DNA from: a virus
Direction: 5' to 3' (one strand)
DNA length: 64,000 bases
Virus record (IMG/VR): IMGVR_UViG_3300032304_002285
Span: 1 to 64,000 of that record
Position numbers and translations under genes: made by a program
In this document: one piece after another, positions 4,885 through 27,268 of the stretch
Position numbering within the stretch: the stretch's first letter is position 1
How the letters are laid out: every line of letters begins with the position of its first letter
Notes under the pieces: model-generated
Told to the model about the DNA's origin: nothing
What the model saw: only the letters and a program-made list of their open reading frames with translations
Databases searched by the model: none

Positions 4885-5130
4885 ATGAAGAAGTCGATTG
4901 AATGGCACGAGGGTTGTATCAAGAACAGCATGGAATCGGCTTTGAGAGCAATTCAAGCATCGAAGAAGCAGATTGCTTTTGAGCAGAAGGCTATTGAGAG
5001 AAACAATCAATACCTTAAGGAGTGTGAGGAGTATTCTTTGCAGGTTGAGCTTGCAAAGAAAAAGGGGAAGACTGAGTTTGATAAGGAGTCTTTCGGCAAA
5101 ACCAAGCCCCGGAAGGCTGACAAGAAGTAA
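4885..5130 (+). CDS. Hypothetical coiled-coil protein, paralogue of 4127..4384
   Basis: Same motif pattern as 4127..4384. Confidence 0.6.
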   Translation: MKKSIEWHEGCIKNSMESALRAIQASKKQIAFEQKAIERNNQYLKECEEYSLQVELAKKKGKTEFDKESFGKTKPRKADKK

Positions 5131-5700
5131 AAAGGAGATTGGTAATGTTGGGTATTTTTTGGAGAGGTAGGAAGAGAACTGACAAGCCCATGTGGCAAAT
5201 ATCGAGTGAATTCCCCAAAAGGCTGTATCATTCTTTTGTAGAGGCTTGTGCTGTAGCATTTGTTTACCCGAGTAAGTTTGAGAGCAAGTATCGTGAAGTC
5301 TTGGATATAATGGAGAAGGATTTGGGTCCTGATTTTCTTCAGCACTTCACGGGTTCAGTTGAGAAGCGGGTTTCGGAGCTTCTTGTAGAAAAGATGCAGG
5401 AACCCCTAGAGAAGCCCGAGGAAGAGGAAGAAGAGGTTAAGGAGGTTGTGAATCTTAAGCGCATTGAGATTCCAGAGGATAAGGCTCAATGGGTTTTGGT
5501 TCTTTGGCGGAAGTGGTTTGAGAAGAGTGACGATTGTTGCCTTGAAGAGAAGTATGAATATCAGAAGGCTTTGTATTCTGTTTGTCCTGGTTTGACGGAA
5601 TGGGGTCCTCAACCACAAATCTACTTGGATGTTATCGGTGGGAAGTTGTTTGTTCTGAATCGAGATTGGTTTTAGTATTTGAAGAGAAGTTCGTTATATT

Positions 5701-5775
5701 GAGTCATTGGCCGATTGGTTTAGGCAGTGGTCTCTAAAACCACCTAGACGGGTTCGATTCCCGTATGACTCACCA
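5701..5775 (+). tRNA. Amber suppressor tRNA (anticodon CTA); charged amino acid unknown
   Basis: GAGTCAT/ATGACTC acceptor, A73, encoded CCA; anticodon arm GTGGT-CT CTA AA-ACCAC (CTA at 5734-5736); T arm ACGGG-TTCGATT-CCCGT. Confidence 0.9.
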
Positions 5776-5802
5776 ATTTTTCTTAGAATGTGGGATTGAA
5801 TT

Positions 5803-6045
5803 ATGAAGTGGCAAAGCAAAAGCAATCCGCCTCCGACTCCTGATGATTCAATGTTATACTGTTTAAGATCTGTTCCTGTTTTGGGTTTTTTCCGTTCAAA
5901 AAAGAAGGCTGTAGTGATTTATCAGAAGGACCCAGAGGAAGGGACGGAGAAATGGTTTACTGATGATTCTGAGGGATGGAATGTCACAGAGGACATTGTT
6001 GCTTGGCAATACCTTCCTGATGATCCTCCTGAGGGGTTTAAATGA
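5803..6045 (+). CDS. DUF551-like small phage protein
   Basis: N-terminal W..P-rich start and C-terminal 'V..DIVAWQYLPDDP' pattern. Confidence 0.45.
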   Translation: MKWQSKSNPPPTPDDSMLYCLRSVPVLGFFRSKKKAVVIYQKDPEEGTEKWFTDDSEGWNVTEDIVAWQYLPDDPPEGFK

Positions 6046-7470
6046 AGAAGTGTCATTGTTGTGCTGCCATTACTGGGGAGAAGGTTTTTGGTACTGAGTT
6101 TGTTTGTGATGATTGTAAAAAAAACAAGCTTTTGGTTAATAAGTATTGGTGGTACAAGCAAGTAACGGGAAGTTGGTTTTGGGGCAGGGTATTCTTTGTC
6201 GCCTATCCAACTTATCTTGTTCTAGCCTTGTGCTATGGGATAATGAAGCCTTATGGGATTTTTTCATGTGTGATTGTTCTTATGATGGCTGCTTATTCCT
6301 GGAAGAGGAATAATTTCCCGATCAAGATAAAGGAAGCCAAGGAAGAGCTTTGGTTAGCGAAGTTGAATGGTGGAAAGTAAAGGACTGCTGGTGTTAGAAG
6401 ATATTTTAGCCAAATTCCCTCCGGGATATCATTTAACGATTGAGGATTTTGACGAGGACACTTACTGTTTAGGGATACAGTCTAGTTTGGATAAAAAGGT
6501 TTCGAGGTATCTATGGTTATTTCCGAAAGGGACTATCATTATAGACTTAGAGACTGAAATGGGGGATTGATGATGGAGAAGGTTCATTTCGATTTTGTTT
6601 TGAATGCAGAAGATGCTCAGAATTTATTTGACTGTATCAACAGGGCGATTCAGAATGCTCAGACTGATAGGATTGAATTGATTTTGGGGAATCAGGGGCA
6701 AGAGACTCAGGAAAGCCTATGGTTCCTTGAGCATTCAAAGTATCTGCTTGGGTTGAAGTCTAAGATCCACAATAAGCCGTATGAAGAAAAAGTTATGAAA
6801 TCGGTTGGCAAGAAAAAGATGATGGGTGTATAGTTAGTTTTAGGTTGGTTGTAGGCAATGAAAGCAATAAGGAAGAAAGAGAACGACTATGATGTAGAAC
6901 CTCTCAAATTATACTATAAGATTTTTAAGCTCAATTGGACATTGCCCAAAGAGGGTATTCCAATTGGGCTTTTTTGTCTTTACTCGTGGTCCTCCGGTTA
7001 TCATTAATGCATTATGTAAATTGGTTTTAGTATTTGAAGAGAGATTAGGAGTAAGTGAAAATGGAAACCGTAATTGAGGCTCAGGTTCAGTACAATCACA
7101 AGTTGTATGAGGCGATTCATTTGATGAAGAAGGAGGTCAAGGAGTTATCTTTGACTCAGCGGACTACCAAGAAAGCCTTTCGTGAGTCTATGGCGGTTTG
7201 GAGTAAGACCCCTCTAGATCAGCATTCCTATACTGATAAGCTTCCTCAATTCAATGATAGTTCTTCTATCTTGACTTCCATGTTCATTATTTATGGAATG
7301 ATCAGGGGTAAGGCTCATTTGAGTAATGAAGCGATGGAGAAGTATTTCCAGCCGAAATCCAACAACTGGATTTACTTCAATCGTCGGAATCAATTCAATC
7401 TTGCCTTAACTGCTTTCCTTAAGGATTATCCAGAGCTTGCATATCTTCTTGATGAGAAGAAGGTGTACTC

Positions 7471-7761
7471 ATGACGAGAGTTTATATTATAGTGGATGAT
7501 AGGCTTACAAAGAGTCAGAGGATTCCTCAAGCTGCTCATGCTGCATCGGAATTGATGTTTGATTTTGGCTAGGAGTCTGCCCATTGGGTCAAGCAAGATC
7601 GAACCTTGATTTGTTTACAGGCTCATGAGAAAGAGATTGAGGGATTGAGGGGTGATTCGAGATTCTATGATGATGATCTTGGATTCACAACGGCAATTGC
7701 CTTTAAGCCGATAGAGGAGGAAGAGGGTAAGAAAAGGTTTGGACATTTGCGGTTAGCTTGA
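7471..7761 (+). CDS. Peptidyl-tRNA hydrolase II (PTH2)-like protein with an in-frame TAG at 7570-7572 (read-through candidate or pseudogene); absent from the ORF track
   Basis: Manual translation: MTRVYIIVDDRLTKSQRIPQAAHAASELMFDFG*ESAHWVKQDRTLICLQAHEKEIEGLRGDSRFYDDDLGFTTAIAFKPIEEEEGKKRFGHLRLA; QAAHAA and TAIAFxP motifs lie on opposite sides of the TAG. Confidence 0.75.
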
Positions 7762-7832
7762 TTAAAGGGGACCCAGAGATTAAAACCTCTAAGTTTTTTT
7801 TAATAAGGAGGGTATTAGATAAAGGAGTTGTT

Positions 7833-8558
7833 ATGGAAAATCAAAAATTAGCTAAAGAGTTGTTAAAGATTGCCAGAGATTTGGTATCTGATTTAGGTAG
7901 TGCTCGTCCAAGGGGTCAATTTAGGGGAAATGGTAGTCAATGGGAGTTTGGGGAAGATTACCAAAGTAAAGCTTCATGGGATTGGACTGCGGACATTGGT
8001 TTGTACGGTAAAAAGGATTTGAGTATTGAGGGAGCAACAGAACAGCATCCAGGGTTTAATAAAGCGATTCGGGAGATTGTGAAGAAATATCCAGAGATAA
8101 TGGAGTATAAGATTTCGTTTGATGGTCCCTTGGTTCCAATTGGAGAAGTTTTAGGATTAAAGACGCCAGAAAGATGGGATGATATTATCTTTTATCATGG
8201 GACTGCGACTGCTGCTCTTGATGCTATTCTCTCAGGTGGATTAAAATCTCGGATGGAGACTGGGGCGGCTGCTGCTCATGGGGCAAACCTTGGCAAACCT
8301 TCCCTTCATTCTGATGCTGTTTATCTGACAACACAAAAGAATACGGCAAATTTTGCAGCGAGGGATGCGGCAAGTAAGACGAAAAGTAAGCCTGTTGTGT
8401 TGGCTATTCGGGGTTTTTCAGGGAATGAGAGAAGTTGGGTTTCCGATGAGGATTCAAGGCAAGATGACCCTTGGGAATCCTTGAGGAAGTTGGGATCTGT
8501 TGCTTATAAGGGAACGATTCCTCCGAAATTTATTAAGGTTGATAGGATTTTAGATTAA
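7833..8558 (+). CDS. Tagged protein: shared N-terminal helix plus ADP-ribosyltransferase-fold (Tpt1/ART-like) domain
   Basis: ATG 7833 after AAGGAG; N-terminus MENQKLAKELLKIARDLVS; C-domain 'FYHGT...AILSGGLK...VYLT...A.NFA..AA...PVVLAI'. Confidence 0.6.
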   Translation: MENQKLAKELLKIARDLVSDLGSARPRGQFRGNGSQWEFGEDYQSKASWDWTADIGLYGKKDLSIEGATEQHPGFNKAIREIVKKYPEIMEYKISFDGPLVPIGEVLGLKTPERWDDIIFYHGTATAALDAILSGGLKSRMETGAAAAHGANLGKPSLHSDAVYLTTQKNTANFAARDAASKTKSKPVVLAIRGFSGNERSWVSDEDSRQDDPWESLRKLGSVAYKGTIPPKFIKVDRILD

Positions 8559-8574
8559 AGCATTAGGAGTCGTT

Positions 8575-8862
8575 ATGAATAATCTTAAATTAGCTGAAGA
8601 GTTGTTAAAGATTGCCAAGGATTTGACTGCCAAGAAGGATTTGTATTGGTTGGCAAAGCAAGTGAAGGTTGGTCATTATCCGTCTGATGATTCTGAGCAA
8701 GGCGATTGGGCAGGAGAAGTTCAATTGCAAGTAATGGAAATCTGGAATCAACTGAATAAGAAAGAGCGGGATGGAATTGAAAAAGAATTGATGGTAGAAG
8801 GAAAACCATTAAAGATTGTATTAAATGGGGTATTGAATGCTGTGATTAATACTCTGACATAA
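8575..8862 (+). CDS. Tagged hypothetical protein
   Basis: N-terminus MNNLKLAEELLKIAKDLTAK; RBS AGGAG. Confidence 0.7.
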   Translation: MNNLKLAEELLKIAKDLTAKKDLYWLAKQVKVGHYPSDDSEQGDWAGEVQLQVMEIWNQLNKKERDGIEKELMVEGKPLKIVLNGVLNAVINTLT

Positions 8863-8886
8863 AGTAGAAAAAATCTTTTTACTAAC

Positions 8887-8920
8887 GGGAGGATCAGGCA
8901 ACTGGTCCTTCTTATTTTTT
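8887..8920 (+). terminator. Rho-independent terminator
   Basis: GGGAGGATCAG-GCAA-CTGGTCCTTCT followed by a T run. Confidence 0.75.
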
Positions 8921-8958
8921 GTGTTATATTGAGGATTCAACCCAAATGGAGGGAAAAT

Positions 8959-9327
8959 ATGAAAGTGATTACTGAGCATCAATGCGGTGGCGGGATGGAT
9001 GAAGGTTTGGTAGTGAGGACGGTTGATGAGCCGGGTCCTGGTGGTGCTCATCATGAATATCATGTTGAGATTACCAATGGATCTGAGACTGAAGTTATAG
9101 GGATTAAATTTCAGAAGGGTCCTGTTAAGGAAGTTGGGTTGAATGGATTGAGTCAAGAGGTTTTACTTGCCATTGTGGTTGACAGGCTTCAGGATTTTCA
9201 GAATGGTCCTTTTGCTTGTGAATCGAATCAGAAGGCATTGGTTGCAGCAAGAGAGTCTTTGGGTTTCTTGAAGTCTCGGACATTAGATAGGATCAAGAGA
9301 CAGGTTGAGGGTAGAAACATAAAGTGA
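8959..9327 (+). CDS. tad1: Tad1/Acb2-family anti-defence nucleotide sponge (Thoeris anti-defence 1-like)
   Basis: 'EPGPGGAHHEY...IKFQKG...G...LL.IV.DRL..FQ.GPF....N..AL...R..DRI.R.V.G.N.K' matches the remembered Tad1 signature along its whole length; ATG 8959 after GGAGG. Confidence 0.85.
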   Translation: MKVITEHQCGGGMDEGLVVRTVDEPGPGGAHHEYHVEITNGSETEVIGIKFQKGPVKEVGLNGLSQEVLLAIVVDRLQDFQNGPFACESNQKALVAARESLGFLKSRTLDRIKRQVEGRNIK

Positions 9328-27003: not shown

Positions 27004-27268
27004 AGATTTGTTGGTTAAGTATATGGCGCATGTTGGAGAGGTTGAGGGTGTTGATTTTTTAGGTTCTTCTTATTTTACGCAATCTAAATGTTTGAATAAG
27101 GAAGAGCAGCAGGCTCTTTTGTCGCTAGAGAAAGAGGCTGGTGAGTATTTGGATAGATTGCACAATAAGAGTGTGTTAATAGACTCTGCTACGTTGACTG
27201 GCGTATGGAATAACACTAGGCGTGGTCCCGATGTTTATTCTGTTTCGGTTAATGTCAGGAGGTAGAAA

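What the first reader, a model, noticed from the sequence alone, without database searches (positions are those of the whole stretch)
5701..7761. Amber-suppressor tRNA next to a peptidyl-tRNA hydrolase gene that needs TAG read-through
Seen: a well-formed tRNA(CUA) with CCA, and 1.7 kb downstream a PTH2-like ORF with one in-frame TAG (7570) between its conserved halves. None of the long genes (721-aa vWA, 631-aa ligase, both AAA ATPases) contains an internal TAG, and TAG ends several genes (540, 3718, 10895, 59641). So this is not wholesale code-15 recoding. Known: recoded phages carry such tRNAs, and suppression causes ribosome stalling and peptidyl-tRNA drop-off that Pth relieves. Inference: a conditional switch in which Pth is made only once the suppressor is active, or an incipient or decaying recoding state. 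TAG followed in frame by another gene at 27265, 28529 and 62399 could give optional fusions.
Basis: partly seen in the sequence, partly recalled or inferred. Interest (0 to 1): 0.75.

Follow-up and report, generated by a model that had tools for sequence, protein, structure and literature searches.

The report
Suppressor-tRNA-gated phage Pth2-like gene
A giant uncultured phage that otherwise uses the normal genetic code keeps one UAG stop codon inside a small peptidyl-tRNA-hydrolase-like gene and carries its own UAG-reading tRNA beside it; dozens of distant relatives keep the same stop at the same place, so the enzyme is probably made only when that tRNA overrides the stop.

Summary
tRNA(CUA) lies at 5701-5775, and a PTH2-fold gene at 7471-7761 has a single in-frame TAG at 7570-7572. 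The TAG is not an error, a private mutation or part of genome-wide recoding.

- **Conservation:** of 50 related loci checked at DNA level, 37 have TAG and 3 have TAA in exactly this column, while the flanking codons are saturated with synonymous changes.
- **Downstream frame:** it is under purifying selection (median dN/dS 0.23).
- **Linked tRNA:** all 17 TAG-state loci with at least about 2 kb of upstream sequence carry a same-strand tRNA(CUA).
- **Conserved partner:** an unknown helical gene (F0, 7055-7474) precedes the hydrolase gene in 44 loci and is fused to it in one database protein.
- **Standard code:** this contig (181 kb, about 51% complete) and a 97%-complete relative (255 kb) both use the standard code, and TAG ends 12-18% of their genes.
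- **Shared element:** a 22-nt repeat unique in the contig precedes both the tRNA and the F0 operon.

Best reading: a natural amber gate ties hydrolase production to suppressor activity. The purpose of the gate is inferred, not shown.

This scan has already found the same kind of module on many other genomes. I found no published description.

The parts
5666..5687 (+). Copy 1 of a 22-nt exact direct repeat (TTGGTTTTAGTATTTGAAGAGA), 14 nt before the tRNA; a candidate shared regulatory or promoter element
   Evidence: Only two copies in the window and in the whole 181-kb contig, even allowing 4 mismatches; 0.01 expected by chance. It does not match the sigma-70 consensus.
5701..5775 (+). Amber-suppressor-type tRNA, anticodon CUA, discriminator A73, encoded CCA
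   Evidence: ARAGORN; Rfam RF00005, 59.6 bits. Short variable loop and 3-bp D stem. No close paralogue among the contig's other 30 tRNAs; the best match is tRNA-Cys at 53 of 75 bases.
5803..7007 (+). Five small same-strand ORFs between the tRNA and F0, not conserved in relatives. The last pair (6567-6833 and 6858-7007) is joined in frame through two TAGs (6831, 6852).
   Evidence: ORF lists; no shared families in the neighbourhood clustering.
7021..7042 (+). Copy 2 of the 22-nt repeat, 13 nt before the F0 start
7055..7474 (+). F0: conserved helical partner gene of unknown family (139 aa). Its TGA overlaps the ATG of the hydrolase gene (ATGA).
   Evidence: One family across 44 loci, as a rule directly upstream of the hydrolase gene. 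AF2 model pLDDT 84.8, all-helical. No Pfam, PDB, Foldseek or Atlas match. A natural fusion to the hydrolase exists in P0013.
7471..7761 (+). PTH2-like (peptidyl-tRNA hydrolase 2 fold) gene, 96 codons, ending in TGA
   Evidence: Pfam PTH2 is matched by all 32 family members (best E 3.1e-9). The family profile matches archaeal Pth2 2zv3 at E 3.8e-6 over the full length. AF2 pLDDT 95.4. Foldseek top hits are Pth2 and Bit1 structures, TM about 0.7.
7570..7572 (+). Conserved in-frame UAG (codon 34), the gate
   Evidence: Same alignment column in 37 TAG and 3 TAA loci of 50. In 37 distinct contexts the -1 Gly uses all four synonymous codons and the +4 base is G in 29, A in 5, C in 3 and never U.

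Best explanation
The tRNA(CUA), the unknown helical protein F0 and the PTH2-like gene form one conserved phage module. The UAG inside the hydrolase gene is kept by selection as a stop codon. Release factor 1 therefore ends translation after 33 residues, which cannot fold alone. The full 96-residue enzyme is made only when the phage's own tRNA(CUA) wins the competition at that codon. Hydrolase output thus follows suppressor activity relative to termination capacity, which is formally like the in-frame UGA that tunes prfB.

The most likely purpose is to match the dose of a peptidyl-tRNA ester hydrolase to the amount of stop-codon read-through going on in the infected cell, or to delay the enzyme until phage tRNAs are working. 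Which residue is inserted probably does not matter.

Shown: the conserved stop, the selected downstream frame, the linked tRNA, standard code elsewhere, and the PTH2 fold. Inferred: that the tRNA is expressed, charged and reads this codon; the enzyme's activity and substrate; the purpose of the coupling; and the role of F0.
For: - **Conserved stop:** the stop sits at one column in 40 of 50 DNA-checked loci, 37 TAG and 3 TAA. TAG lies on both sides of the family tree across branches of 0.3-0.6 changes per site; TAA arose 2-3 times next to TAG sisters.
- **Selection on the stop:** flanking codons are saturated with synonymous change (Gly GGC 11, GGA 9, GGT 8, GGG 6) while the stop persists.
- **Downstream frame is translated:** median dN/dS after the stop is 0.23 and before it 0.125. 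Invariant residues lie on both sides.
- **One domain:** the AF2 model is a single domain that needs both halves.
- **Not reinitiation:** 23 of 37 contexts have no in-frame start codon within 8 codons after the stop, and most of the others have one only after the invariant Trp.
- **Linked tRNA:** 17 of 17 TAG-state loci with at least 1955 bp upstream have a same-strand tRNA(CUA) 0.5-4.7 kb upstream.
- **tRNA bodies differ:** many are Lys-like, and discriminators are A, G or U. What is kept is the anticodon, not the tRNA.
- **Variable column:** the stop's position varies widely across the broader family.
- **Terminators:** TAG-state genes never end in TAG (0 of 32), and all three TAA-state genes end in TGA.
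- **Standard code:** in this contig TAG ends 31 of 262 genes, and ORFs of up to 2216 aa are open. In the 97%-complete relative G001, TAG ends 39 of 218 genes and there is a single tRNA(CUA).
- **Shared cis element:** a 22-nt repeat unique in the contig precedes both the tRNA and the F0 operon.
- **F0 partnership:** F0 co-occurs in 44 loci and is fused to the hydrolase in P0013.
Against: - Nothing here is experimental. Expression, charging and decoding by the tRNA are not shown, and no RNA data were available.
- TAG ends 12-18% of the phage's own genes, with no extra back-up stops behind them. A strong suppressor should therefore be costly, which argues for weak or brief suppression and leaves its wider role open.
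- The window's copy scores just under Pfam's cut-off (22.7 against 23), and the Thr of the archaeal Pth2 catalytic motif is not kept, so the substrate may differ from that of classical Pth2.
- The window's closest relatives (L019, L020, L022) have a sense codon at the column, yet L019 and L022 keep the tRNA. The gate is therefore dispensable, and the tRNA may have other clients.
- Only about half of this genome is in hand.
Confidence: 0.62

Rival explanations
1. The stop is only an attenuator. The enzyme is harmful in excess, and a leaky UAG read by a weak dedicated suppressor keeps it at a few percent of normal output. Nothing is being sensed.
For: The stop is kept and the inserted residue seems irrelevant. 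Some lineages replaced the stop by a sense codon without losing the gene. TAG-ended phage genes show no adaptation to strong suppression.
Against: A weak ribosome-binding site would do the same without a dedicated tRNA gene. The tight linkage (17 of 17) and the shared 22-nt element suggest coordinated control, not a constant leak.
Confidence: 0.2
2. The suppressor tRNA has a different main job, such as read-through of host or phage TAG-ended genes during takeover, or a role against tRNA-targeting defences. The gated hydrolase is merely one client or an antidote.
For: L019 and L022 keep tRNA(CUA) although their hydrolase gene has a sense codon. Cultured jumbo phage XacN1 carries amber suppressors for which its authors found no target (PMC5852040). 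Many module tRNAs are Lys-like.
Against: No other credible TAG client is seen in 181 kb here or in 255 kb of G001. The tRNA is nearly always next to the F0-hydrolase operon.
Confidence: 0.1
3. Split gene: the stop truly terminates, and the C-terminal part is made separately by reinitiation and joins the 33-residue peptide.
For: 14 of 37 contexts have some in-frame ATG, GTG or TTG within 8 codons after the stop. 13 of the 150 best database hits are C-terminal fragments as called by gene finders.
Against: 23 of 37 contexts have no such start. In this window the first one (TTG at 7606) would remove the invariant Trp39 and Thr45. The codons between stop and candidate starts are conserved as protein. 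This reading does not explain the linked tRNA(CUA).
Confidence: 0.04
4. Genome-wide or late-gene TAG recoding (code 15), or a private nonsense mutation, pseudogene or sequencing error.
For: Only 51% of the genome is in hand. Relatives of the family occur in TAG-recoded Lak phages.
Against: Head-to-tail genes of up to 2216 aa are open under code 11, and TAG is a normal terminator here and in the 97%-complete G001. The same stop is present in 40 of 50 loci. A second assembly gives the same sequence.
Confidence: 0.03

Closest known systems
Stop-codon-recoded phages with their own suppressor tRNAs (TAG read as Gln, 'code 15': Lak and crAss-like phages; Borges et al., bioRxiv 10.1101/2021.08.26.457843)
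   Same: A phage-encoded tRNA(CUA) lets in-frame TAG codons be read, and suppression is proposed there as a timing device for gene expression. That work also notes standard-code relatives that have already acquired a suppressor tRNA.
   Different: Here the genome uses the standard code. A single small gene carries the stop, at a fixed position kept across distant lineages, and the gene lies next to the tRNA. The gated gene is a translation-quality-control enzyme, not a lysis or structural gene. Peptidyl-tRNA hydrolase is not mentioned in that paper (0 occurrences of 'hydrolase').
prfB (release factor 2) autoregulation through an in-frame UGA and a +1 frameshift (established knowledge, recalled from memory)
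   Same: An in-frame stop inside a gene of the termination and peptidyl-tRNA hydrolysis field makes its output depend on the competition at that stop.
   Different: Read-through by a dedicated tRNA instead of a frameshift. The product is not known to act on the stop that gates it, so a feedback loop is not shown.
Programmed stop-codon read-through in viruses (Qbeta A1 protein, MuLV gag-pol; established knowledge, recalled from memory)
   Same: A conserved in-frame stop with a selected downstream frame.
   Different: Those cases use host near-cognate tRNAs and make two useful products in a fixed ratio. Here the short product is very probably useless, and the virus brings the matching suppressor tRNA itself.
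Archaeal and eukaryotic Pth2 (PF01981; PDB 2zv3, 1wn2, 1xty, 3erj; human Bit1, 1q7s)
   Same: Same fold and an end-to-end profile match. The Lys of the GKGK region and the Asp of the D-A-G motif have counterparts (K14, D67).
   Different: Shorter (96 aa). Its own invariant motif is SQRIPQxxHA, and the Thr of the motif is not kept. It is phage-only: no copy was found in 185,579 species genomes. It is paired with F0.
Jumbo phage XacN1 amber suppressor tRNAs without a known target (PMC5852040)
   Same: A standard-code jumbo phage with many tRNAs, tRNA(CUA) genes and a peptidyl-tRNA hydrolase gene.
   Different: The authors read through the 18 amber stops that end genes and found no target. I did not examine whether XacN1's hydrolase gene is gated.

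Membership tests
Pth2 (Pfam PF01981) | Profile match at or above the curated cut-off | tested here: inconclusive
   The window's protein scores 22.7 bits against a cut-off of 23, over positions 7-114 of 115. All 32 aligned family members match at E <= 0.01, best 3.1e-9. The family profile matches Pth2 2zv3 at E 3.8e-6.
Pth2 (Pfam PF01981) | Pth2 alpha/beta fold | tested here: met
   AF2 pLDDT 95.4, pTM 0.86. The Foldseek top 10 are all Pth2 or Bit1 chains, probability 1.00, TM 0.64-0.76.
Pth2 (Pfam PF01981) | Catalytic residues (Lys, Asp and Thr of the archaeal enzymes; the residue list is from memory) | tested here: inconclusive
   In the profile alignment to 2zv3, K14 and R17 fall in the GKGK segment and D67 falls on the Asp of RDAG. 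The Thr position is not conserved.
Pth2 (Pfam PF01981) | Hydrolysis of peptidyl-tRNA | not testable with these tools
   Needs an enzyme assay.
Amber suppressor tRNA | Canonical cloverleaf with a 7-nt anticodon loop, U33, anticodon CUA and a purine at 37 | tested here: met
Amber suppressor tRNA | Expressed, aminoacylated and decoding UAG | not testable with these tools
   No RNA run was listed. The amino-acid identity is unresolved.
Code-15 (TAG-recoded) phage | Many genes with in-frame TAG and poor coding density under code 11 | tested here: not met
   Coverage by simple gene calls under code 11 is 0.89. TAG ends 31 of 262 genes. TAG joints are not enriched. The same holds for G001.
Code-15 (TAG-recoded) phage | Code-change helpers (release factor, synthetase) | tested here: not met
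   No RF-1 domain in this contig or in G001. No class Ic or class II Lys/Asp-type synthetase in this contig. The contig is only 51% complete.
Programmed stop-codon read-through | Stop conserved in position, with the downstream frame under purifying selection | tested here: met
Pyrrolysine system | tRNA-Pyl features (short D loop, 3-nt variable loop, no T-loop consensus) and pyl genes | tested here: not met
   The tRNA has GG in the D loop and a TTCGA T loop. ARAGORN's 'Pyl' label only reflects the anticodon. TAA replaces TAG in three relatives.

The most novel reading that the evidence does not exclude
The module is a self-contained translational sensor. The suppressor tRNA exists mainly to gate this operon. 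Read-through at the fixed UAG measures the balance between release factor 1 and charged phage tRNA in the infected cell. F0 then directs the hydrolase to a particular class of peptidyl- or acyl-tRNA, possibly the suppressor itself, which would close a feedback loop of the prfB kind.
Probability: 0.2. Interest if true: 0.88.

Novelty: new variant of a known kind. Interest (0 to 1): 0.78.

Why it matters
Many standard-code jumbo phages carry amber suppressor tRNAs for which no target is known; the authors of the XacN1 paper say so explicitly (PMC5852040). This module gives such tRNAs a concrete, conserved client. It is a natural counterpart of the amber-gated circuits built in synthetic biology, and it links stop-codon suppression to peptidyl-tRNA quality control. 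It could also mark a stable intermediate on the path to stop-codon recoding. The parts are small (a 75-nt tRNA and genes of 139 and 96 codons), so the idea can be tested directly in a laboratory host.

Tried and rejected
- **GenBank phages:** blastn of 5000-9000 and tblastn of the read-through protein found nothing. A more distant family member (P0015) hits Lak phages and Aeromonas phage 65 at 32-35% identity; I did not follow this up.
- **IMG/VR:** a single-protein scan found nothing. The alignment scan gave two loci. Scans with P0009 and P0010 found nothing.
- **Species genomes:** no relative.
- **F0 function:** Pfam, PHROGs, PDB sequence search, Foldseek and the Atlas gave nothing usable.
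- **The look-up of encoding contigs:** I therefore could not check whether the 'G-Q' forms among the closest database proteins are real CAR codons or TAG read by code-15-aware gene callers. None of the 50 DNA-checked loci has CAA or CAG at the column.
- **RNA evidence:** no RNA holder was listed among sequencing runs.
- **The 22-nt repeat:** no sigma-70 consensus match and no intrinsic terminator in 5400-8700. The repeat is absent from relatives' loci, and no comparable shared word lies upstream of the tRNA and F0 in other loci.
- **Back-up stops:** no enrichment behind TAG-ended genes.
- **Crude ORF coverage under codes with one stop removed:** not discriminating for short loci.
- **tRNA identity:** a Gln-like D arm was considered, resting on recalled E. 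coli tRNA-Gln. The nearest-neighbour comparison gave no clear isotype for this window's tRNA.
- **Ochre suppressor in the three TAA-state contigs:** not testable, because the contigs are too short upstream.
Full report
**What is there**

The window is the first 64 kb of a 180,758-bp linear IMG/VR virus record that CheckV rates 51% complete. All long genes lie on the + strand and GC skew is about 0.35. The contig holds 31 tRNA genes and a tmRNA.

ARAGORN and Rfam both find a well-formed tRNA with anticodon CUA at 5701-5775. At 59.6 bits it is the highest-scoring tRNA in the window. It has a perfect 5-bp anticodon stem, the loop CUCUAAA, canonical D- and T-loop signatures, discriminator A73 and an encoded CCA.

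An ORF starts 1.7 kb downstream at 7471 and meets TAG at 7570-7572. Read through, it continues to TGA at 7761 and gives 96 residues. That product matches Pfam PTH2 almost end to end.

TAG ends the genes at 540, 3718, 10895 and 59641, and the long genes contain no internal stop.

**The gene is a real Pth2 relative and needs both halves**

- All 32 aligned family members match Pfam PTH2, best E 3.1e-9.
- The family profile matches archaeal Pth2 structures over the full length: 2zv3 at E 3.8e-6, and also 1wn2.
- The AlphaFold model has mean pLDDT 95.4 and is a single alpha/beta domain.
- Its Foldseek top hits are Pth2 and Bit1 chains with TM about 0.7.
- Codon 34 lies in the long helical segment 14-42, so the first 33 residues (one strand and part of a helix) cannot form the domain.
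- K14 and R17 fall in the segment that aligns with the GKGK motif, and D67 aligns with the Asp of the archaeal D-A-G motif. The Thr of that motif is not kept. Activity is therefore plausible but not shown.

**The stop is conserved and selected**

A search of protein databases found uninterrupted homologues at 49-57% identity. Scans of IMG/VR and of JGI metagenomes with the family alignment returned 50 loci.

Read at DNA level, 37 loci have TAG and 3 have TAA in exactly the column of the window's TAG, 21 codons after the start of the invariant [STN][KR]SQRIPQ motif. Ten loci have a sense codon there: CCT twice, then GAA, AAT, TCC, TCT, ACA, TTG, and TGG in one divergent member.

In 37 distinct sequence contexts:
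- the preceding Gly uses all four synonymous codons about equally, and the residue before it is aromatic;
- the base after the stop is G in 29, A in 5, C in 3 and never U.

On a maximum-likelihood tree, TAG lies on both sides of the midpoint, across terminal branches of 0.3-0.6 changes per site. Sense codons form three clusters, and TAA appears two or three times, each time beside a TAG sister.

Between stop-bearing genes, synonymous divergence is mostly above 1. Median dN/dS is 0.125 before the stop and 0.23 after it. The frame behind the stop is therefore translated and under selection.

Reinitiation is not a conserved alternative. 23 of 37 contexts have no in-frame ATG, GTG or TTG within eight codons after the stop, and most of the rest have one only after the invariant Trp. 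In the window the first such codon is TTG at 7606.

TAG-state genes never end in TAG (0 of 32), and the three TAA-state genes all end in TGA. Given TAG's 12-15% share of terminators, 0 of 32 has a probability of about 0.006-0.017.

A second assembly of the probable source run agrees with the window over 5600-7900, but it is not independent data.

**The tRNA is linked to the gene**

ARAGORN on all loci shows a same-strand tRNA(CUA) 0.5-4.7 kb upstream in every TAG-state locus that has at least 1955 bp of upstream sequence, 17 of 17. In L046 it lies just downstream instead.

Two sense-state loci, L019 and L022, which are among the window's closest relatives, also keep a clear tRNA(CUA).

The tRNA bodies are not orthologous. 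Many resemble tRNA-Lys, discriminators are A, G or U, and the window's tRNA has no close match; its best is tRNA-Cys-like.

The conserved feature is therefore a CUA anticodon next to this operon. This fits the fact that the column of the stop is variable in the wider family. I could not determine which residue this window's tRNA inserts.

**A third conserved part**

The gene directly upstream (7055-7474, here called F0) belongs to one family present in 44 of the loci. It is nearly always immediately before the hydrolase gene, and here it overlaps it by ATGA.

F0 is predicted to be all-helical (pLDDT 84.8) and has a motif close to HIIYNRLRHxRPH. It matches nothing in Pfam, the PDB, Foldseek or the Atlas.

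One database protein, P0013 (234 aa), is a natural fusion of F0 (E 4.6e-16 to the F0 profile) and the hydrolase domain. This argues that the two act together.

In this genome only, an exact 22-nt word occurs twice in 181 kb: 14 nt before the tRNA and 13 nt before F0. It is a candidate shared control element, but it does not match the sigma-70 consensus.

**Not genome-wide recoding**

- Under code 11 the contig's head, tail and replication genes are open, up to 2216 aa.
- TAG ends 10 of 84 long ORFs and 31 of 262 simple gene calls.
- Places where coding-like sequence runs on both sides of a stop number 5 for TAG, 12 for TAA and 4 for TGA.
- The relative behind L003 (G001, 255 kb, 97% complete) has the same TAG. 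It is likewise standard-code: TAG ends 39 of 218 genes, there are 6 TAG joints against 16 TAA and 22 TGA, and it has one tRNA(CUA) among 46 tRNAs.
- Neither genome encodes an RF-1-domain protein.
- This contig has no Pth1, no Glu/Gln-type synthetase and no class II Lys/Asp-type synthetase.

**How it most likely works**

The shown facts amount to a lock and key: a stop codon held in place by selection inside a one-domain enzyme gene, and next to it a gene for the tRNA that reads that stop. Full-length enzyme should therefore appear only in proportion to suppression at UAG, that is, to the balance between charged tRNA(CUA) and release factor 1.

Why a peptidyl-tRNA hydrolase should be tied to that balance is inference. 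The phage, which also carries a tmRNA, would then scale the clean-up enzyme to the load.

A delay timer, a plain attenuator, and a feedback loop in which the enzyme acts on the suppressor itself are all compatible with the data.

Against a strong suppressor: the phage's own TAG-ended genes show no extra back-up stops.

**Comparison and novelty**

The closest published system is stop-codon recoding in Lak and crAss-like phages, where suppressor tRNAs are thought to time late genes. This case differs in that the genome uses the standard code, one gene carries the stop at a fixed position, that gene lies beside the tRNA, and it encodes a translation-quality-control enzyme.

The logic resembles prfB's in-frame UGA (from memory). 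The XacN1 paper reports amber suppressors without a target in a standard-code jumbo phage. Full-text searches found no description of a gated Pth2 gene. That is not proof of absence.

Within this scan, the same kind of module has been reported on many other genomes, with the stop at other positions in other subfamilies. My result is an independent confirmation for the SQRIPQ subfamily. It adds the F0 partner, the fusion protein, the selection tests, the TAA variants and the shared repeat.

**Limits**

- Everything rests on sequence.
- Half of this genome is missing.
- The tRNA's identity, its expression and the enzyme's substrate are unknown.

Noticed in passing
L002:9219-9305, L059:5369-5441, L064:5378-5463: In the clade whose hydrolase gene has a sense codon at the gate column, the tRNA at the same position before F0 has an 8-nt anticodon loop, AUUCUAAC, on a 5-bp stem kept by compensating changes. 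ARAGORN calls it CUA in two loci and UCU (Arg) in the third. It could be a quadruplet-reading or otherwise unusual tRNA.
   Followed up: partly
protein P0013 (234 aa, from the representative search): A natural fusion of the unknown partner F0 (residues 5-122) with the Pth2-like domain (133-234).
   Followed up: partly
window 6567-7007: The gene 6567-6833 ends in TAG (6831). A second in-frame TAG follows six codons later (6852), and ORF 6858-7007 continues in the same frame, all inside the stretch between the tRNA and F0. This may be chance or a second read-through product; no homologues were found.
   Followed up: no
window 7758-8558 (probable start ATG 7834): The gene after the hydrolase shows weak similarity to RNA 2'-phosphotransferase Tpt1/KptA and to the PARP catalytic domain (E 0.07-0.14), and matches two PHROGs of unknown function. 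It begins with the helix tag that other notes of this scan describe. It is not conserved in relatives' modules.
   Followed up: no
G000:C1:72868-73271 (beyond the window): A phage-encoded tmRNA with tag peptide AETLEFPAMPIAA, at the end of a second tRNA cluster.
   Followed up: no
L003:7312-8517 and genome G001: A 401-aa TnpB/IS605-OrfB-like ORF lies directly before the tRNA(CUA). The whole tRNA-F0-hydrolase module is on the strand opposite to 127 of 137 long ORFs of that phage, which hints that the module can move.
   Followed up: no
L027, L040, L043: Three relatives have TAA instead of TAG at the gate, and all three genes end in TGA. This predicts ochre suppressor tRNAs in those phages, but the contigs are too short to check.
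   Followed up: partly
L008:10551-10649, L010:12126-12224, L015:334-432, L017:5085-5183: Unrelated IMG/VR phages found through the anticodon-arm word carry 99-nt tRNA-like genes that ARAGORN labels with a four-base anticodon (taaa).
   Followed up: no
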